Shown here: positions 24,399-31,617 of the stretch, piece by piece
How the letters are laid out: every line of letters begins with the position of its first letter
How positions within the stretch are numbered: position 1 is the first letter of the stretch
Position numbers and translations under genes: made by a program
Source: an uncultured Clostridia bacterium
GTDB lineage: Bacteria; Bacillota; Clostridia; TANB77; CAG-508
NCBI GenBank assembly: GCA_934169725.1
Contig: CAKPOF010000003.1
Coordinates: 48,460 to 112,459, forward strand
DNA: 64,000 bases
Direction: 5' to 3'
The notes under the pieces: generated by a model
Database searches by the model: none
Seen by the model: only the letters and a program-made list of their open reading frames with translations
Told to the model about the DNA's origin: nothing

Positions 24399-24523
24399 TC
24401 TGAACAATAAATTTAATGAGAAAATTTTTGAGAAAAAAACTAAAAAAATTCAAAAAATGTATTGACAAAATATAAAACTAATATTATAATATCAATTGTC
24501 GTTAAGGCAAACCAGTTTAAAAT

Positions 24524-24611
24524 GCAGATGTGGCGGAACTGGTAGACGCACAGGACTTAAAATCCTGCGGTTGAATAAACCGTGCCGGTTCGATTCCGGC
24601 CATCTGCACCA
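24524..24611 (+). tRNA. tRNA-Leu (anticodon TAA) with a long variable arm and an encoded CCA.
   Basis: Acceptor stem gcagatg/catctgc, anticodon loop cttaaaa, long variable arm and T-arm ggttcgattcc. There is a TTGACA-N17-TATAAT promoter at 24461-24490. Confidence 0.9.
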
Positions 24612-24667
24612 TTAGAACCTCAAGTAGTTCGTAAGATATGCTTGAGGTTTTAATTTATAAAAATTTT

Positions 24668-24770
24668 GTAGTTCTACAAAAAGTTCTACAAAATTGACAA
24701 CATTTTATTTTTATAAAATCTTTATTTAGTGGCTTAAATAAGGATTTTTTATTTTCTAACAGTTCTAACA
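24668..24770. repeat. Cluster of direct GTTCTACAAAA / GTTCTAACAA repeats between the tRNA and the integrase gene. These are putative integrase arm-type sites.
   Basis: tagttctacaaaaagttctacaaaat at 24668-24693 and ttctaacagttctaaca at 24754-24770. The same tandem motif recurs at 30374-30398. Confidence 0.5.
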
Positions 24771-24778
24771 ATTTTTAT

Positions 24779-26011
24779 TTATAACTCCATTTCTTCATCT
24801 TCTTCGTCATCATCTTGACTAGGATCAATAAAGTTTAAACTATTACCAATTACTAAGGCAGAATTTTGTTTTGACTCTGTATCTACATGAGTATATATAT
24901 TCGCTGCAGTATTGTAACTAGAATGACCTAACCATATTTGAATATCTTTCATACTTACTTTATTTGATAGTAATAAACTAGCACACGAATGTCTTAAATC
25001 ATGAAATCTAATAGGTTTTAAGTTATTATTTTTTAGTATTTGATTAAACTTATGTGAAACATAGTCAGGCTTTAGTATAGAGCCATCTATATTCACACAA
25101 ACATAGCCATTGTCATTTAAGTATGATTTTTTAAATACTTTCTTATTGTATTCTTGATTTGCCTTTTCTTCTAAAAGTATTTCTTCTATTTCTGGAATTA
25201 ATGGCAATGTCCTATAACTTGATTGATTTTTAGTTTTATCTTCTGCAACAATTTGCAATTTACCATCTACTTTTGTTTGTGAAATGGTATGTCTAATTAT
25301 AATTGTTTTATTATCAAAATCAACGGCATTCCATTTAATACCAAGTGCTTCACTTCGCCTAAGTCCATAATATAAGGCTAAAAGAACAGGTAACTTAATA
25401 GGTGTGTCTTTTATTGCAACTAATAATTCATTTAGTTGTGCTTTATTGTAATAGGTTGCTATGTATTGTTCCTTTTTAGGCTTATCTATTTTGTCTGCTG
25501 GATTGGTTAGTATCAATTCACATTTTACTGCATATTGCAATGCTTTTCTAATATTTGCGTGATAGCGAAGAATCGTATTACCTTTCAAACCTAAGTTATA
25601 TAATTCTGTGTAAAAATCTTGAATATGATAAGGCTTTAAATCTTTTAAGGAAACATCTAATTTCTTAAAATAGTTATATACTTTACCTTTTACAATTCTT
25701 TCATAACCTGCATAAGTAGTTTTTACAACTCTAGGTTTTATAATATCTAGCCAATTTATCATAAAATCACAAAATTTTATATTAGCTTTATTATTTATAT
25801 CTAACCCAGAAATAGTTAGTTTTTCATTTAGAGTTTTTTCATATTCATGTCTTATTTCTTCAACTTTTCTTTCTGCAAGTTTCTTATTGTTCTTAACTTT
25901 TAATTTAGTGGAAATCCACTTTCGCTGTATATTATTAAATTCATCTTTATAATATAAAACAGCATAATAAATATTTTTCTTTTGCTGTAATGTAGCTGTT
26001 ACCGTTATCAT
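24779..26011 (-). CDS. int: Tyrosine-type site-specific integrase.
   Basis: 410 aa. The C-terminal catalytic region has R...HDLRHSCASLLL...GHSSYNTAANIYTHV (R-H-R-Y). Confidence 0.9.
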   Translation of the reverse strand: MITVTATLQQKKNIYYAVLYYKDEFNNIQRKWISTKLKVKNNKKLAERKVEEIRHEYEKTLNEKLTISGLDINNKANIKFCDFMINWLDIIKPRVVKTTYAGYERIVKGKVYNYFKKLDVSLKDLKPYHIQDFYTELYNLGLKGNTILRYHANIRKALQYAVKCELILTNPADKIDKPKKEQYIATYYNKAQLNELLVAIKDTPIKLPVLLALYYGLRRSEALGIKWNAVDFDNKTIIIRHTISQTKVDGKLQIVAEDKTKNQSSYRTLPLIPEIEEILLEEKANQEYNKKVFKKSYLNDNGYVCVNIDGSILKPDYVSHKFNQILKNNNLKPIRFHDLRHSCASLLLSNKVSMKDIQIWLGHSSYNTAANIYTHVDTESKQNSALVIGNSLNFIDPSQDDDEEDEEMEL

Positions 26012-26049
26012 AAAATGACCTCCTTATTCTCGTGTAAATGTATTTATTT

Positions 26050-26256
26050 TCAATTTTGACTTATTATGTATGAAATTATATTAGCTTTTGGAATTTTATA
26101 TTGTCTGCCTATTTTCATAGCTTTTATTTTGTTTTCCTTAATAAGCCTATAAGCTAGTGTTAAACTAATTCCACCTAACATATTTCGCATTTGTTCAATG
26201 TTTATAATATCTGGGTAATTTGTAAACATGATAGAATATTGTTCTTTTACATCCAT
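26050..26256 (-). CDS. xis: Excisionase / HTH_17-family DNA-binding protein.
   Basis: 68 aa, ...IINIEQMRNMLGGISLTLAYRLIKENKIKAMKIGRQYKIPKANI. Confidence 0.55.
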   Translation of the reverse strand: MDVKEQYSIMFTNYPDIINIEQMRNMLGGISLTLAYRLIKENKIKAMKIGRQYKIPKANIISYIISQN

Positions 26257-26277
26257 TTTAATTGTACCTCCTGTTTG

Positions 26278-26493
26278 TTAATAAACTACTTTTGGAACAT
26301 CTATTGAAACCGTTAATTTTCTGTCTATTTCAAAGCTTTTCTTTTTATTATTATACTTGTAAGCACTAGAATTAAACTTTCTAAAACTACGATCTGAAAT
26401 GTCAAAATAATAAGATAGTTCTTCCGCATCTTGTTTCAGTTGGGCTTTAAGAGCTTCATAACTATCTTTGTTTGATTTTTGCTTTAATTTCAT
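26278..26493 (-). CDS. Hypothetical protein. It may be the C-terminal part of a frameshifted gene that starts at 26684.
   Basis: The open frame extends upstream of the ATG to 26596 and overlaps the 26520-26684 ORF across an A6 run. Confidence 0.3.
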   Translation of the reverse strand: MKLKQKSNKDSYEALKAQLKQDAEELSYYFDISDRSFRKFNSSAYKYNNKKKSFEIDRKLTVSIDVPKVVY

Positions 26494-26519
26494 GTATTCA
26501 ATGGTTCGTTCTTTATGTT

Positions 26520-26684
26520 TTAGTTGATTTTGTTGTTTCCTTTGACTTTTTTCTTCATGATACCTAGAATCTTTTTTATTATTTTTGATACATAGGCATT
26601 ACTGACATTTAATTCTAAAGCAATATCAACAGGTTTTAAATGTTTATTGTAAAATAAATCAATAATTTTTTCTTTAATTGACAT
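26520..26684 (-). CDS. Small HTH protein (sigma-70 region-4-like), 54 aa. Not in the ORF track.
   Basis: MSIKEKIIDLFYNKHLKPVDIALELNVSNAYVSKIIKK... with the ATG at 26684. Confidence 0.35.
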   Translation of the reverse strand: MSIKEKIIDLFYNKHLKPVDIALELNVSNAYVSKIIKKILGIMKKKVKGNNKIN

Positions 26685-26959
26685 GATAAAAGTACCTCCT
26701 TGTGATTGGTTAAATTTTTGCTAATAAATTTTAAGCATAATAATCTAAATGAATATTTATAGATAAATACTCATTTTTAAATTTATTTGTTTAAAGAATT
26801 ATATTATCATAATTAGTAATAATCAATTTCCTTTTTTCTAAAAACTTAAAAATACTTAAAATCAATTGTAACTAGATTGTAGCAGGGAATAAAAAATAAA
26901 TCAATGAATGTTTTTTGAACAATTTTTGAAAAAATTAGATGTAAAAAAAATGATAATAG

Positions 26960-27362: not shown

Positions 27363-27513
27363 ATATAAAGTCATAATACTTCATTTCACAAATTTACTAA
27401 TAAAAAATTTATTATATAAAAAGAAAAAGAACAACAAAAGTAGTATAATACTAATAAGAAATTGACAAAATAAGATAATAAAAATAAGTAAATAGTGAAA
27501 TGAGGTAATAAAA

Positions 27514-27783
27514 ATGGTACAAAATACAAATAATAGTTTAGAAGAAAAATTAAATGAGTTTATAGGGAAAAATGTAACTATAACTCAAGATGGATTTTTG
27601 AAAAATAAATACTCAATACATAGACTAAAATATTTTATTGAATATGAGATTTTGAATATCACAGATAACGAAAGCCAGAATTATCTAAAGATAAACTTGA
27701 ATCAAATATACAAAATAGAAATCAATGAAAAAGACATTAAATTATACTTAGATAATGATACAATAATTTGTCTTGGTATTTAA
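27514..27783 (+). CDS. Hypothetical protein (89 aa).
   Basis: ORF with no recognisable domain. Confidence 0.3.
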   Translation: MVQNTNNSLEEKLNEFIGKNVTITQDGFLKNKYSIHRLKYFIEYEILNITDNESQNYLKINLNQIYKIEINEKDIKLYLDNDTIICLGI

Positions 27784-27818
27784 AAAGATAGACTACTTAA
27801 GTCTACCTAAATCGAAAA

Positions 27819-28019
27819 TTATTTTTGTAATTTCTCTAATTCTTCTTTATCTTTTTCATCTAGATTATTTAGGCTAAATTCTAATAAAGAAATTACAACT
27901 TTATTAAAAGATAAGTTTTTGAGATTAGCAAGATTTTGTATATCTTCTACTATATTTTCTGGCAATCTAAGAGTTTTGCTAACTCCACTATGATTTTCTG
28001 GTATTCTTAGCTTATTCAT
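27819..28019 (-). CDS. Small putative ribbon-helix-helix (Arc/CopG-like) DNA-binding protein.
   Basis: 66 aa. An N-terminal beta-strand-like segment KTLRLPENIVEDIQNLA is followed by helices. Confidence 0.3.
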   Translation of the reverse strand: MNKLRIPENHSGVSKTLRLPENIVEDIQNLANLKNLSFNKVVISLLEFSLNNLDEKDKEELEKLQK

Positions 28020-28157
28020 ATTTGCAACCTCCTTTGCAAGATATTTTATATTAAAAAATAAAATAAATATGCACCTATTTGTGCTTGCAAATATTTTGCA
28101 ATCATGATAATATAATTTCAGAAAATCAAAAGAAAAAATGAAAGGAATGATTTAATC

Positions 28158-29495
28158 ATGAAGAAACTAAAAGAAGAATTAAAGTATGGTAAAAGAGGTA
28201 TTACTCTTATTTCTCTTGTCGTTACAATAGTTGTTTTATTAATTTTAGCAGGAGTAACAATAGCAACATTAACAGGAGATAATGGAATTCTATCAAGAGC
28301 GAGTGAGGCTAAAGAAAGAACAGGACAAGCAAATGCAGAAGAACAAGTAGAAATAGCAGTAACAGGAAGTATAGGAACAGATGGAAATATTCATTATGGG
28401 GATTTGAAAACAAACTTAGATAAAATATCAAATATAACAGGAGTACCAGATGAAATAATAGATAGCAGTTTTCCTATAGCAGTTAAGGTAGATGGGTATG
28501 ATGTGACAATCAAAAGAGATGGTAGTGTTATATTAGGGGAATATATAGTGCCAGGAAATCCGGATAAAACTACAGGTATATTTAAAGAAACAAGTACAAT
28601 TAATGGTGAAGAAGGAAATAAAAACAATCCTGTTATACCAGAAGGATTTAAGCCTATAAATGAAGGAAATGCCAATTGGGGAGATGGAACAACAGAACCA
28701 CCTGGCATTAATGAAGGATTAGTAATAGAAGATGGTGAAGGAAATCAATATGTATGGATATCTGTAGATGGTGTAATAGGAAAAAATGGAAAAACACTGC
28801 AAAATGCAGTAGATAGAGAAATTATATTAGGAAGATATTTATTTGAAACAGGAGGAAAAATAAATACAACATTAAGTCCATCTTCATTAGGAGGAGATTT
28901 AAAGCTAACAACTACAGATACTACCATATATAGGGAAATGACAGAAAAATCAAAAAATAATACAATAGCTAAGGATATAAATAGATTTATAGATAGTGTA
29001 GAAAAAAATGGAGGATATTATATATCTAGATTTGAGGCAAGCGAAGGTGATGATGGTAAAGCTGACAGTAAATACAATCAAGTTGTTTGGGCAAACATAA
29101 CACAACCAGATGCTGCAAATGCATGTTTAGATTTATATACAAGTATCGAAAGTGATTTAATCAATAGTTATGCATGGGACACAGCTGTTTTATTTATACA
29201 AAAAAACTCAGGAGATTCAGATTATTCAAGACAGGCAAGATTACAAAATACTTTAGCAAATACAGGGAAAGCTACAAATGGAAGTAGTTATGATATTAGA
29301 TGCAATATATATGATATGGCAGGAAATTGCAGAGAATGGACAACTGAAACGTCTAGTTTTGTTGGCGGACCAACAGTTACAAGGGGTGGAGAATATTTGT
29401 ATCGCAGTAATTATACAACTACTCGAGGAAATAATTCAGAGATGCTCCAAAAACCTAATTTTTCGTTTCGTTCCATTTTATATATTAATAATTAA
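28158..29495 (+). CDS. Membrane-anchored protein with a pilin-like N-terminus and a C-terminal FGE-sulfatase / C-type-lectin-fold (SUMF1-, DUF1566-like) domain.
   Basis: N-terminus KRGITLISLVVTIVVLLILAGV (prepilin-like, but lacks Glu+5). C-terminal motifs VVWANITQPDAANAC, YAWDTAV, YDMAGNCREWT (GNVWEWT-like) and TRGGEY...FSFRS (RGGSW...GFR-like). Confidence 0.5.
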   Translation: MKKLKEELKYGKRGITLISLVVTIVVLLILAGVTIATLTGDNGILSRASEAKERTGQANAEEQVEIAVTGSIGTDGNIHYGDLKTNLDKISNITGVPDEIIDSSFPIAVKVDGYDVTIKRDGSVILGEYIVPGNPDKTTGIFKETSTINGEEGNKNNPVIPEGFKPINEGNANWGDGTTEPPGINEGLVIEDGEGNQYVWISVDGVIGKNGKTLQNAVDREIILGRYLFETGGKINTTLSPSSLGGDLKLTTTDTTIYREMTEKSKNNTIAKDINRFIDSVEKNGGYYISRFEASEGDDGKADSKYNQVVWANITQPDAANACLDLYTSIESDLINSYAWDTAVLFIQKNSGDSDYSRQARLQNTLANTGKATNGSSYDIRCNIYDMAGNCREWTTETSSFVGGPTVTRGGEYLYRSNYTTTRGNNSEMLQKPNFSFRSILYINN

Positions 29496-29580
29496 TAACA
29501 GATGTATAAAGAGATACAGTATAAACTATTTTTGTAGTTTAATACTGTATTTTTTGTTCACACAAAATTCACAAAATATT

Positions 29581-29657
29581 TTAGCAGAAAGTATTGACAA
29601 GTGCTAAAATGGGGTATAATATATAGAAAGTTAGCAGACAAACAAAAAGAGTGCTAA
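29581..29657 (+). promoter_or_regulatory. sigmaA promoter (TTGACA 29594-29599, TATAAT 29615-29620) flanked by two CIRCE-like inverted repeats.
   Basis: TTAGCAGAA-N9-AAGTGCTAA at 29581-29607 and TTAGCAGAC-N9-GAGTGCTAA at 29631-29657. The CIRCE consensus is TTAGCACTC-N9-GAGTGCTAA. Confidence 0.65.
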
Positions 29658-29690
29658 AAACTAACAATTAAAACTAAAGAGGCGAAAAAA

Positions 29691-30056
29691 TTGTTAGATG
29701 ATAGAAAAAAGAAAGTATTACAATCAATCGTAGAAGAATATATTAATACAGCAGAACCAGTTAGTTCAAATGCATTAACAACCAATCATGGATTAGATTG
29801 TAGTAGTGCAACCATTAGAAATGAAATGGCGGATTTGGAAAAGGCAGGTTATTTGGACAAAACCCATACATCAAGTGGTATGGTGCTTTCTGAAAAAGGA
29901 TACAGATATTATGTAGATGAGTTGTTAAAAGATGATGACATTAGCTTAGAGGAAATCAAATATATTAGTGATAAATTAGAAACAAAAGTAAATAATATAT
30001 ATGATTTAGCAGTAAATGTAGGAGAATTTTTAAAGTTTGGCAATAAAAAATATTAA
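29691..30056 (+). CDS. Stand-alone HrcA N-terminal winged-helix DNA-binding domain (121 aa). It lacks the HrcA middle and C-terminal domains.
   Basis: MLDDRKKKVLQSIVEEYINTAEPVSSNALTT...SSATIRNEMADLEKAGYLDKTHTSSG...KGYRYYVDELL matches the HrcA N-terminus closely. TTG start after an AAAGAGG RBS. Confidence 0.7.
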   Translation: MLDDRKKKVLQSIVEEYINTAEPVSSNALTTNHGLDCSSATIRNEMADLEKAGYLDKTHTSSGMVLSEKGYRYYVDELLKDDDISLEEIKYISDKLETKVNNIYDLAVNVGEFLKFGNKKY

Positions 30057-30263
30057 AATATTTCATACTTATATAATATTTCTAGTAATTTTGTTTCATT
30101 TTCTATAATTGATTTTTTAATATCTTCTATCGTTCCTGTTTCATAAACAAGTTTGCTAAATTCATCTTGAAAATTTGAAAAACTAGCTCTTATAGCTTGT
30201 TCTGTTTTTGGAGAAATCACTTGGTAAATTTCTTGACATTTCTTGCAAATTATATATAAACAT
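30053..30263 (-). pseudogene. Small CxxC protein gene that looks frameshifted near its start.
   Basis: GGAGG-N7-ATG at 30263 opens a 26-aa frame. A frame +1 relative to it encodes ...ICKKCQEIYQVISPKTEQAIRASFSNFQDEFSKLVYETGTIEDIKKSIIENETKLLEILYKYEIF through to 30053. Confidence 0.3.
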
Positions 30264-30373
30264 AATTAACCTCCAATTATATAATTGTGCGAGAATCTCT
30301 TATACAATAGTATTATAGCATAAATTCCTGAAAATTGTCATTTTTTAGTGGAAATAATAAAAGAATCCTTTTT

Positions 30374-30398
30374 TAGTTCTACAAAAGTTCTACAAAAA
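30374..30398. repeat. Right-end copy of the tandem GTTCTACAAAA arm-type repeat.
   Basis: tagttctacaaaagttctacaaaaat, matching 24668-24693. Confidence 0.5.
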
Positions 30399-30546
30399 TT
30401 TAAAAATTTTTGATAGTTGCCAAAAATAAAAAAATATTGTATAATCTAAATGAAATTGAAAGAAAGTTAGAAAAAAGGCTTATTTGATATTTATAAATGG
30501 TGCTAAATAATGCTAAAAAATTTTAAGTAATAATTATTTGATTTTT

Positions 30547-30603
30547 CTTAAAATCCTGCGAGGGTTAAACCTCGTGCCGGTTCGATTCCGGCCATCTGCG
30601 CCA
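30547..30603 (+). repeat. attR: partial direct repeat of the tRNA-Leu 3' half (anticodon loop to the 3' end) with a diverged variable arm.
   Basis: cttaaaatcctgcg-agggttaaacctc-gtgccggttcgattccggccatctgcgcca, compared with the tRNA at 24556-24611. Confidence 0.75.
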
Positions 30604-30615
30604 CAGTAATATCAA

Positions 30616-30960
30616 GTGTTTTGTAAAATTCCACTTGGTATTATTTTTTTTGCTTTTTTCAGAGTTCTAATGAAAAAGATACAAGGAATACTAACTTTTA
30701 CTATTGAAGATGATAACGGAAAATTTAGAAATTATGGAGAAGCTGTTTATGATGGGGATATTCAAATATTTATGGCTCCACCTCATAGAATGGTTTCAGC
30801 ATTAATGGATAACTTATACACAAGTAGAAATGGCTAAAACACTTGATTTAACAAGAGATGGCATATCATATAATATTAAAATTCTAAAAGAAAAAGGCGT
30901 AATTGAAAGAATTGGTTCTACTAAAAATGGAATTTGGAAAATGTACAATTTTGTCCATCA
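30616..30960 (+). pseudogene. Fragments of a degraded regulator of the divergent-AAA (AlbA_2) / HATPase_c_4 type. The C-terminal winged-helix part is in a different frame.
   Basis: ...GEAVYDGDIQIFMAPPHRMVSALMDNLYTSRNG, then in another frame MAKTLDLTRDGISYNIKILKEKGVIERIGSTKNGIWKM. Confidence 0.3.
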
Positions 30961-31382
30961 ACAAATTTGAAAAATTGTACATTTTTGTATTGACATTAAC
31001 ATATTGTCTTGATGAATGCTATAAAGTATCCGGAAGGCTTCTATGGTGTTGTAAAGAATCAAAGGAAAAAAGTAAGAAAGTTATTCTTACAAATCCTTTG
31101 GATTGCAAAAATAAAATTAATCTAAAGGGAATGATTGCCAAATGGAAAGGTACAGGACACATTGAGTGGGAATTTATTTTAGCAGGATTATTCATTCATG
31201 ATGTTGTTAATGCAATTGAGAATGATGATCAAGAAGCGGACCTTACTTTCATGTTTAATCTTGACTTTCATGATAAGAATGGTAATACATTTACTGCACA
31301 GCAGGTATATGATCACTTAATTAAATCATTTACTATTGTTGATGAAACAGATACAGAATTGAAACTTAAGTTCTGTATTTAA
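30903..31382 (+). CDS. Hypothetical protein. The true start may be internal, for example at MIAKWKG.
   Basis: ORF with no recognisable domain, followed by a hairpin/T-run at 31395-31440. Confidence 0.25.
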   Translation: MKELVLLKMEFGKCTILSINKFEKLYIFVLTLTYCLDECYKVSGRLLWCCKESKEKSKKVILTNPLDCKNKINLKGMIAKWKGTGHIEWEFILAGLFIHDVVNAIENDDQEADLTFMFNLDFHDKNGNTFTAQQVYDHLIKSFTIVDETDTELKLKFCI

Positions 31383-31617
31383 CCAAACCAAAAAAGAAAA
31401 ATCATTTTCTTTTCCTTGAAAAAGGTTTCTTTTTTTTTATTTAACTAATTTTGTTTTTATGTAAGTAGATTACAATATAAACTTTTGTATTATCATTTTT
31501 ATAAAGAATTATAATTGTATAGAAAAATAAGAAAAAATAAAAAAATTTCTTATTTTTTTGTTTTGTAAATTTTTGAAGATAAAATGCATATAATGTAACA
31601 AAAGGAGGAATTTTAAT

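What the first reader, a model, noticed from the sequence alone, without database searches (positions are those of the whole stretch)
29560..30056. Mobile-element cargo is a stand-alone HrcA DNA-binding domain behind two CIRCE-like operators
The 121-aa product of 29691-30056 is almost residue-for-residue the N-terminal winged-helix domain of the heat-shock repressor HrcA. Its start (MLDDRKKKVLQSIVEEYINTAEPV) and the SSATIRNEMADLEKAGYL segment both match. It then stops, and lacks the dimerisation and GroEL-responsive domains of the ~340-aa repressor.

It is driven by a near-consensus sigmaA promoter overlapped and followed by two CIRCE-like inverted repeats. The second, TTAGCAGAC-N9-GAGTGCTAA, has a perfect right arm. 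Both share a non-canonical TTAGCAGA left arm. This is the control region that normally heads hrcA-grpE-dnaK. Here it is captured inside an att-bounded integrative element, so it is not a relic in situ.

Such a module could titrate or mimic host HrcA. It could impose chaperone-independent repression of CIRCE promoters such as dnaK and groESL, or act as a decoy operator. I am not aware of either having been described.
Basis: partly seen in the sequence, partly recalled or inferred. Interest (0 to 1): 0.65.

Follow-up and report, generated by a model that had tools for sequence, protein, structure and literature searches.

The report
Broken hrcA gene copy in island
A small mobile element inserted at a tRNA gene carries the first third of a heat-shock repressor gene (hrcA) with that gene's own promoter and operators, and it looks like a recombination leftover, not a new regulator.

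Summary
Window 29550-30011 is a 462-bp copy of the 5' end of hrcA. It holds a sigma-A-type promoter, two CIRCE operators (29581-29607 and 29631-29657), a ribosome-binding site and about 101-107 codons. It lies inside a 6-kb element integrated at tRNA-Leu.

The "non-canonical" operator arms and the two-operator layout are not special. 60 of 76 native hrcA loci in related uncultured gut Clostridia have the same layout.

The functional reading is not supported, for five reasons.
- The 121-aa product has only the winged-helix domain plus a foreign tail, and lacks all of the C-terminal HrcA domain, where (from the literature) HrcA dimerises.
- It carries R64M and P66L in the wing. These positions are R and P in all 112 other relatives scored.
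- Two sister elements (94% and 87% integrase identity) lack the fragment.
- It sits in a variable cargo region next to another truncated gene (DUF6602, about 19 codons left).
- All recovered copies are identical.

The best reading is a gene remnant picked up by illegitimate recombination. It probably still has an HrcA-repressible promoter.

Purifying selection on the fragment cannot be excluded, because no near-identical donor was found. The closest native gene is 92-93% identical in DNA.

In passing: some related lineages carry a conserved +1 frame break in native hrcA at a rare CGG codon.

The parts
24524..24611 (+). tRNA-Leu (anticodon taa), the integration target
   Evidence: ARAGORN; Rfam tRNA, 61.9 bits
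24581..24607 (+). attL core: exact 27-nt repeat, the 3' end of the tRNA
24779..26011 (-). tyrosine integrase (410 aa), intact
   Evidence: Pfam Phage_integrase on the identical gene in L081; relatives at 94% and 87% identity sit in sister islands
26050..26256 (-). excisionase-like HTH_17 protein (68 aa)
   Evidence: conserved in sister islands
27405..29528 (+). cassette of a 89-aa ORF, a 66-aa ORF and a 445-aa secreted protein (28158-29495) with a prepilin-type N-terminus. This cassette is found elsewhere without hrcA'.
   Evidence: weak Pfam hits to N_methyl and FGE-sulfatase; L096 is 90% identical only up to 29528; L143, L146, L148, L159 and L161 share 27405-28300
29550..30011 (+). hrcA' block: DNA homologous to native hrcA loci (promoter, operators, 5'UTR and about 101-107 codons)
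   Evidence: blastn gives 92% identity to L006 over 29550-30011; megablast ends at 29993
29581..29607 (.). CIRCE-like operator 1, TTAGCAGAA-N9-AAGTGCTAA, containing the -35 TTGACA (29594-29599)
   Evidence: identical to site 1 of L006, L007 and L009
29615..29622 (+). -10 region (TATAAT at 29615-29620 or TAATAT at 29617-29622)
   Evidence: conserved in all aligned native loci
29631..29657 (.). CIRCE-like operator 2, TTAGCAGAC-N9-GAGTGCTAA
   Evidence: the same arms occur natively in L001, L011, L032 and L074
29691..30056 (+). 121-aa ORF: HrcA winged-helix domain plus linker helix (aa 1-101/107), then a foreign tail. The ribosome-binding site AAAGAGG is at 29676-29682.
29880..29888 (+). codons 64-66 (ATG GTG CTT = M V L), where all native genes encode R-[IV]-P. 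They lie in the second strand of the wing.
30012..30205 (.). sequence of unknown origin between the hrcA' block and the conserved right end of the island. It holds the ORF's foreign tail and a 55-aa minus-strand ORF with no family match.
30206..30264 (-). stump (about 19 codons) of a DUF6602 gene that is 382 aa in the sister island L091. Its promoter is at 30312-30341.
30573..30599 (+). attR core (exact 27-nt repeat)

Best explanation
The segment is a gene remnant. A 444-462-bp piece of a chromosomal hrcA locus was joined by illegitimate recombination into the variable cargo region of a small element integrated at tRNA-Leu. The piece comprises the native promoter, both CIRCE operators, the 5'UTR and the first 101-107 codons. 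The donor was a gut Clostridia relative.

Inferred, not shown: the promoter and operators are intact, so host HrcA probably still represses the fragment and heat probably induces it. That would yield a 121-aa winged-helix peptide. This peptide lacks the dimerisation and GroEL-responsive parts and has two substitutions in the DNA-contacting wing. It is therefore expected to have little or no CIRCE-binding activity. Two extra single-copy operators should be buffered, because native hrcA sits behind its own CIRCE sites and so regulates itself. I expect the net effect on the host heat-shock regulon to be negligible.
For: 1. The anatomy is that of a fragment. DNA homology to 80+ native loci starts at about 29550 and stops at 29993-30011. 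There is no C-terminal HrcA sequence anywhere in the window. The TIGR00331 match covers profile positions 1-100 of 338 and falls below the cut-off.

2. It is a copy of ordinary native DNA. 60 of 76 native loci have the same two operators, 50-51 nt apart, with the first over the -35.

3. It is not conserved cargo. Sister islands share only the core (24449-26950) and the right end (30205-30629), and they lack hrcA'. The adjacent pilin-like cassette occurs elsewhere without it, with homology ending at 29528.

4. The region is a patchwork of stumps. The DUF6602 gene (382 aa in L091) is cut to about 19 codons at 30206-30264. The Mob_Pre relaxase gene present in L091 has no counterpart in the window's island: the two share only the core and right end, and none of the other cargo ORFs scanned gave a relaxase match.

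5. There are signs of lost constraint. Native HrcA of the closest cluster is identical over aa 1-101 except for the island-specific A12S, R64M and P66L. R64 and P66 are R and P in all 112 other relatives scored, and T. maritima HrcA also has R and P there. The model places residues 64-66 in the wing hairpin.

6. No variation was seen among the recovered copies. The exact protein sequence is indexed in 84 blocks; L081-L083 match window 29300-30400 at 100% DNA identity, and L095 encodes identical island proteins. This points to a recent spread, not long retention.

7. Blocking HrcA dimerisation is reported to impair its DNA binding (PMC12154930).
Against: - No near-identical donor gene was found. 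The closest native genes are 92-93% identical in DNA, with dS about 0.28.
- On the island branch, codons 1-100 show about 6-7 synonymous but only 3 non-synonymous changes. Pairwise dN/dS to native genes is 0.03-0.07, against 0-0.035 among native genes. If much of that divergence arose after capture, the fragment has been under purifying selection. The counts are too small to decide (Fisher p=0.32).
- The ORF, start codon, ribosome-binding site, promoter hexamers and all four operator arms are intact.
- The host's own hrcA was not identified, so the copy could not be compared with it.
- Nothing about expression or binding was measured.
Confidence: 0.72

Rival explanations
1. The fragment is a functional stand-alone winged-helix protein. 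Heat would induce it from its own CIRCE-controlled promoter. It would then compete with or mimic host HrcA at CIRCE half-sites, changing chaperone expression to the island's benefit.
For: The ORF, ribosome-binding site, promoter and operators are intact. The winged-helix fold is predicted with moderate confidence. The island branch has fewer non-synonymous than synonymous changes. A precedent exists for an HrcA-repressed, heat-induced modulator of HrcA: HagF in Chlamydia (PMC12154930).
Against: It has no dimerisation domain, while CIRCE is an inverted repeat read by a dimer. R64M and P66L change otherwise invariant wing residues. The fragment is absent from sister islands. The C-terminal tail is foreign sequence of low model confidence. 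It lies next to another gene stump. All copies are identical, so there is no record of long-term retention.
Confidence: 0.12
2. The useful part is the DNA, not the protein. Either the two operators act as a decoy that titrates HrcA, or the HrcA-repressed promoter has been co-opted to make transcription across the right end of the island heat-inducible. That transcription would run convergent with the DUF6602' promoter and towards attR, linking island behaviour to host stress.
For: The operator arms and promoter hexamers fall within the native range and are unbroken. No terminator-like site was found downstream of the ORF: the scan of 29300-30400 found only a hairpin inside the ORF at 29864-29883. 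A strong convergent promoter lies at 30312-30341.
Against: Native hrcA sits behind the same operators in every locus examined, so it regulates itself, and titration by two single-copy sites should be compensated (inference). There is no plus-strand gene between the ORF and attR. Sister islands manage without this promoter.
Confidence: 0.1
3. The fragment is an assembly chimera, or the 5' end of a full-length hrcA that has been misassembled.
For: One low-coverage contig (L084, coverage 1.2) joins a native-like hrcA upstream region to the island copy.
Against: Independent assemblies from several samples show the same context, on contigs of 110-546 kb and on L095. Both junctions are reproducible.
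Confidence: 0.02

Closest known systems
HrcA, the CIRCE-binding heat-shock repressor (TIGR00331; structure 1stz of Thermotoga maritima)
   Same: The N-terminal winged-helix domain is 98 of 101 residues identical to native HrcA of the closest gut Clostridia. The promoter and double-CIRCE control region are the same.
   Different: Only about 30% of the protein is present. The PF01628 part, which covers the GAF-like and dimerising domains, is missing. There is no grpE-dnaK downstream. R64M and P66L sit in the wing. A 14-20-aa foreign tail follows.
Gene remnants and pseudogene fragments carried as scars in the variable cargo regions of integrative elements
   Same: The sequence has sharp homology breakpoints, lies next to another truncated gene, is absent from sister elements and sits in a region that differs between relatives.
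   Different: Here the fragment keeps a complete and probably regulated promoter-operator and an open reading frame, so it is likely still transcribed.
tRNA-integrated integrative mobilizable elements (tyrosine integrase, Xis and Mob_Pre relaxase), as in sister island L091/L092
   Same: It uses the same tRNA-Leu(taa) target, att core, integrase-Xis core and right end.
   Different: The window's copy has no relaxase and only a stump of DUF6602. It carries a pilin-like secreted-protein cassette and hrcA' instead.
HagF of Chlamydia (PMC12154930): an HrcA-repressed, heat-induced inhibitor of HrcA
   Same: It is a gene behind an HrcA-controlled promoter whose product could in principle feed back on HrcA.
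   Different: HagF binds HrcA and blocks its dimerisation. The 121-aa fragment has no dimerisation surface and no homology to HagF was tested or expected. The resemblance is in circuit logic only.

Membership tests
HrcA repressor (TIGR00331 equivalog) | N-terminal winged-helix DNA-binding domain homologous to HrcA | tested here: met
   E=1.3e-39 over profile positions 1-100; match to 1stz residues 15-95; Foldseek top hit is 1stz
HrcA repressor (TIGR00331 equivalog) | Whole-protein score above the curated cut-off (197.2 bits) | tested here: not met
   136.7 bits
HrcA repressor (TIGR00331 equivalog) | C-terminal HrcA domain (PF01628; GAF-like and dimerising parts) | tested here: not met
   No PF01628 hit. 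tblastn with full-length HrcA finds only aa 12-110 in the whole window.
HrcA repressor (TIGR00331 equivalog) | First gene of an hrcA-grpE-dnaK operon | tested here: not met
   It is followed by about 500 nt with no plus-strand gene and then attR. Native loci have grpE and dnaK downstream.
HrcA repressor (TIGR00331 equivalog) | Conserved wing motif HTS[SA]G-R-x-P | tested here: not met
   The island has M-V-L. All 112 other relatives have R-x-P. The same holds for the closest native cluster.
CIRCE operator | 9-bp inverted repeat with a 9-bp spacer resembling TTAGCACTC-N9-GAGTGCTAA, placed at a sigma-A promoter | tested here: met
   Site 2 matches 7/9 and 9/9; site 1 matches 6/9 and 8/9. Both match the native forms of the clade in sequence, position and 50-nt spacing.
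CIRCE operator | Bound by HrcA | not testable with these tools
   Needs EMSA, footprinting or ChIP.
tRNA-integrated integrative element | Tyrosine recombinase next to a tRNA gene, with the tRNA 3' end repeated at the far end | tested here: met
Integrative mobilizable element | Relaxase (Mob) gene | tested here: not met
   Present in sister island L091 (Mob_Pre). The window's island shares only the core and right end with L091, and the other cargo ORFs scanned against Pfam gave no relaxase match.
Gene remnant | Truncated relative to intact homologues, with breakpoints inside the coding sequence, and not conserved among related elements | tested here: met
Gene remnant | Neutral evolution since truncation (dN/dS near 1) | tested here: inconclusive
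   3 non-synonymous against 6-7 synonymous changes on the island branch. The donor is unknown, so changes before and after capture cannot be separated.

The most novel reading that the evidence does not exclude
The fragment is kept because it is useful. On this reading it is a heat-inducible, HrcA-repressed mini-gene on a mobile element. Its monomeric winged-helix product, or its two extra operators, would shift the set-point of the host CIRCE regulon and so link the island's behaviour to host proteotoxic stress.
Probability: 0.12. Interest if true: 0.6.

Novelty: new member of a known kind. Interest (0 to 1): 0.27.

Why it matters
As it stands, this is a tidy example of how integrative elements pick up and carry pieces of host regulatory genes. 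An intact stress-regulated promoter-operator can travel with such a piece. That matters mostly for annotation. Short "HrcA-like" ORFs in metagenomes should not be read as new regulators. The same search showed that most of the short HrcA hits inspected are contig-end fragments or frame errors.

If the fragment were shown to be expressed and active, it would be a mobile modulator of the heat-shock regulon, which has not been described in the papers searched.

The conserved +1 frame break in native hrcA of related lineages may be the more interesting lead for follow-up.

Tried and rejected
1. Recurrent family of stand-alone HrcA N-domains. The protein search returned only hits of 90-210 aa. The 105-aa class comes from an error-ridden contig in which dnaK is split into three pieces. 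The 165-aa ORFs are frameshifted native genes followed by grpE-dnaK. Many others lie on contigs of about 1 kb. The search's candidate step seems to favour short targets. Only the 127-129-aa class is reproducible (see the items noticed in passing).

2. Joint capture of the pilin-like gene and hrcA' from a chromosome. Pilin-like genes do lie upstream of native hrcA in at least 8 related genomes. However, the closest homologue of the 445-aa gene (L096, 90% DNA identity) loses homology at 29528 and has no hrcA downstream. Joint capture is therefore not supported.

3. Origin of the foreign tail from a paralogue of the 445-aa gene. A 34-nt match at 79% links 29304-29337 to 29994-30027, and the peptides are NIYDMAGNCREW and NIYDLAVNVGEF. 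It is no better than other chance two-copy repeats in this AT-rich DNA (blastn E=0.25), so I dropped it.

4. The host's own hrcA. It is not in the window. The species could not be tied to any of the 80 representative genomes. Native proteins with an identical N-terminus occur in several genomic contexts, all 92-93% identical in DNA. Contig L084 may join the host's native hrcA to the island copy, but at coverage 1.2 it may equally be an assembly chimera.

5. Phage and plasmid collections. Only distant matches (<60% identity) turned up. Those that carry annotation are labelled full-length hrcA and many records are very large, but the phage records are unannotated and I did not check them for truncation.

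6. Literature. The library searched holds no paper on truncated, second or paralogous hrcA.

Full report
**What is there**

The ORF at 29691-30056 (+ strand, TTG start, 121 aa) is real. It matches the NCBIfam hrcA equivalog TIGR00331 at E=1.3e-39. The match covers only profile positions 1-100 of 338 and scores 136.7 bits, below the 197.2-bit cut-off. It aligns to residues 15-95 of the Thermotoga maritima HrcA crystal structure 1stz.

An AlphaFold2 model (mean pLDDT 75) shows a winged helix: helices at 4-20, 26-32 and 39-52, strands at 55-57 and 64-66, and then two helices. Its best structural match is 1stz, at rmsd 1.1-1.4 A.

Upstream lie two 27-nt CIRCE-like inverted repeats:
- TTAGCAGAA-N9-AAGTGCTAA at 29581-29607
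- TTAGCAGAC-N9-GAGTGCTAA at 29631-29657

They are the only TTAGCA-N15-TGCTAA sites in the 64 kb (0.35 expected by chance). A TTGACA -35 (29594-29599) sits inside the first repeat. A TATAAT/TAATAT -10 lies at 29615-29622. AAAGAGG lies 8 nt before the TTG start.

**The element around it**

A tRNA-Leu(taa) gene lies at 24524-24611. Its last 27 nt (24581-24607) are repeated exactly at 30573-30599. Between these repeats are:
- an intact tyrosine integrase (24779-26011, minus strand)
- an HTH_17 excisionase-like gene
- small HTH genes
- a 445-aa protein with a prepilin-type N-terminus
- the hrcA fragment

The exact 121-aa protein is indexed in 84 blocks of the assembly collection. 23 contigs of up to 546 kb were read, and all show the same neighbours. 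A further independent contig, L095, agrees. The feature is therefore not an assembly artefact, and the ORF does not run on into a full gene. tblastn with a full-length HrcA finds only residues 12-110 anywhere in the window.

**It is a copy of ordinary native DNA**

A scan of one genome per species returned 80 loci from uncultured gut Clostridia, including Clostridium sp. CAG:440, CAG:575 and 28_17. In each, the match is to residues 1-107 only. In 77 of the 80 loci the match belongs to a full-length hrcA of 333-343 aa; in all those whose downstream genes I inspected, grpE follows, and dnaK where the contig reaches that far. The other three loci carry frame-disrupted copies.

DNA homology between the window and these loci begins at about 29550 and ends at 29993 (megablast) or 30011 (blastn). 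The best identity is 92-93%.

Of 76 native loci with enough upstream sequence, 60 have the same two operators. The spacing is 50-51 nt in 56 of them, and in all 60 the first operator contains the -35. The left arms vary:
- site 1: TTAGCAAAA (32 loci), TTAGCAGAA (19), TTAGCACAA (5)
- site 2: TTAGCAAAC (35), TTAGCAATC (17), TTAGCAGAC (4)

The "non-canonical" arms are therefore the normal form in this clade, and the whole control region was simply copied along with the 5' end of the gene.

**Why I read it as a remnant**

1. Related islands do not carry it. An island with a 94%-identical integrase (L090) and one at 87% (L091-L094, also bounded by the tRNA-Leu att core) share only 24449-26950 and 30205-30629 with the window. 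Neither contains any HrcA-like sequence.

2. The cargo region is a patchwork. In L091 the right end begins with a 382-aa DUF6602 gene, and further in lies a Mob_Pre relaxase gene. The window keeps only the promoter, ribosome-binding site and about 19 codons of DUF6602 (30264 to 30206, minus strand), and the window's island shows no counterpart of the relaxase.

3. The neighbouring cassette moves on its own. The block 27405-29528, which includes the 445-aa gene, is found in other contigs. Homology there stops at 29528 or earlier, and no hrcA follows.

4. The protein has lost what HrcA needs. All of PF01628 is missing; from the literature (the 1stz structure paper, cited in PMC12154930), that part holds the dimerising domains. 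A recent preprint on the Chlamydia protein HagF reports that blocking HrcA dimerisation impairs DNA binding (PMC12154930).

5. Invariant residues have changed. Native HrcA proteins of the closest cluster are identical to one another over residues 1-101. They differ from the island copy at exactly three positions: A12S, R64M and P66L. Positions 64 and 66 are R and P in all 112 other relatives scored and in T. maritima HrcA. In the model they lie in the second strand of the wing.

6. The last 14-20 residues are unrelated sequence, modelled with pLDDT below 50.

**What keeps the functional reading alive**

No donor gene closer than 92-93% DNA identity was found. dS to the nearest native gene is 0.28. 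By parsimony, the island branch carries 6-7 synonymous and 3 non-synonymous changes in codons 1-100. Pairwise dN/dS is 0.03-0.07, against 0-0.035 among native genes.

The simplest account is that the synonymous changes accumulated in an unsampled native donor, and the three replacements came after capture. If instead most of the divergence is post-capture, the fragment has been under purifying selection. The numbers are too small to decide (Fisher p=0.32).

The promoter, operators, ribosome-binding site and reading frame are all intact. I therefore expect the fragment to be transcribed and repressed by HrcA. This is inference only.

**Mechanism I commit to**

The element acquired a 5' hrcA fragment by illegitimate recombination in its variable region. 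Host HrcA binds the two copied operators, and heat relieves the repression. A short, monomeric, wing-damaged winged-helix peptide is made and does little. Two extra operators in single copy are buffered, because native hrcA sits behind the same operators and so regulates itself (inference).

Confidence in this reading is about 0.72. The rivals are:
- an active competitor or mimic of HrcA (0.12)
- a decoy operator or a co-opted heat-inducible promoter (0.10)
- an assembly artefact (0.02)

**Comparison with what is known**

The sequence is a member of the HrcA family by homology of one domain only. It fails the cut-off score, the C-terminal domain, the operon context and the wing-motif tests, so it should not be annotated as HrcA.

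The element belongs with tRNA-integrated integrative elements whose relatives carry a Mob_Pre relaxase. This copy lacks the relaxase.

No paper on truncated or second hrcA copies was found in the library searched. Phage and plasmid collections gave only distant matches; those that carry annotation are labelled full-length hrcA, and I did not check the unannotated phage records for truncation.

In kind, this is a gene remnant on a mobile element. That is a familiar phenomenon, here with an unusually complete regulatory region.

**Side observations**

Most of the short "HrcA" proteins inspected from the big protein search are artefacts: contig ends, or frame errors in the assembly.

One class is reproducible. 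In at least three species, native hrcA is split at the same spot by one extra C, reading ATT CGG ACC where intact genes read ATA/ATT GGA CCA. This gives a 127-129-aa winged-helix ORF and, in the +1 frame, an intact PF01628 ORF, followed by grpE. CGG accounts for 0-1 of 1000-1800 codons in long ORFs of those loci. This looks like a conserved +1 frameshift site at a rare codon, or else a conserved split gene. It was only partly followed up.

Noticed in passing
L086 1000-2008 (junction about 1370-1392); L185 and L187 2501-3542; L188 2501-3524: In three different species, native hrcA upstream of grpE is broken at the same position by one extra C. It reads ATT CGG ACC and then a stop, where intact genes read ATA/ATT GGA CCA (I-G-P). 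The result is a 127-129-aa winged-helix ORF and, in the +1 frame, an intact PF01628 ORF. In L185 the overlap between the two frames is only 4 codons. CGG is almost unused in these loci (0-1 per 1000-1800 codons). At least 7 protein clusters end at this spot. This may be a programmed +1 frameshift at a rare codon, or a conserved split hrcA. No paper linking hrcA and frameshifting surfaced.
   Followed up: partly
L084 1-240 versus window 29500-29733: A low-coverage contig (coverage 1.2) is identical to the window from about 29733 to attR. It is only about 87-90% similar over the hrcA promoter and first codons, and unrelated further upstream. This is either a recombinant between a native hrcA and the island copy or an assembly chimera. 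Its product (P0001) differs from the window's by D4N, K7R and S12A.
   Followed up: partly
window 28158-29495; L001 2278-6835; L020 5005-7758; L018 5103-6782: The genes encode a large, fast-evolving family of secreted proteins. They have a prepilin-type N-terminal methylation motif and a weak FGE-sulfatase-like C-terminal domain (NIYDMAGN..EW). Copies often lie in tandem (four in L001) and often directly upstream of native hrcA in related genomes. In the window, one travels on the island with two small ORFs as a cassette (27405-29528).
   Followed up: partly
window 24664-24706 and 30369-30411: Direct repeats of GTTCTACAAAA-type motifs lie just inside both ends of the island. They are probably arm-type integrase binding sites, and they are also present in sister islands L090 and L091.
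   Followed up: no
window 30604-31400: Similarity to the island's left end continues for about 30 nt past the attR core (81% over 57 nt). Short ORFs follow, including a 46-aa MarR/HTH_20-like C-terminal fragment (30830-30970). This may be the remains of an older element integrated in tandem. In L083 another integrase-bearing element sits to the left of the island instead of the tRNA 5' part.
   Followed up: no
P0002 (207 aa, on a 2278-bp ENA contig): This ORF encodes 175 residues of HrcA joined to a GatB/YqeY-like C-terminus, in a close relative (94% identical to the query over the aligned part). It is either another rearrangement involving hrcA or a chimeric contig.
   Followed up: no
L008 202-1219; L018 7995-9009: Native hrcA is split into ORFs of about 165 aa and about 198 aa by a frame break near '...KFVLLG'. 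This occurs in two species-representative MAGs at the normal hrcA-grpE-dnaK locus. It could be assembly error or a real frameshift.
   Followed up: no
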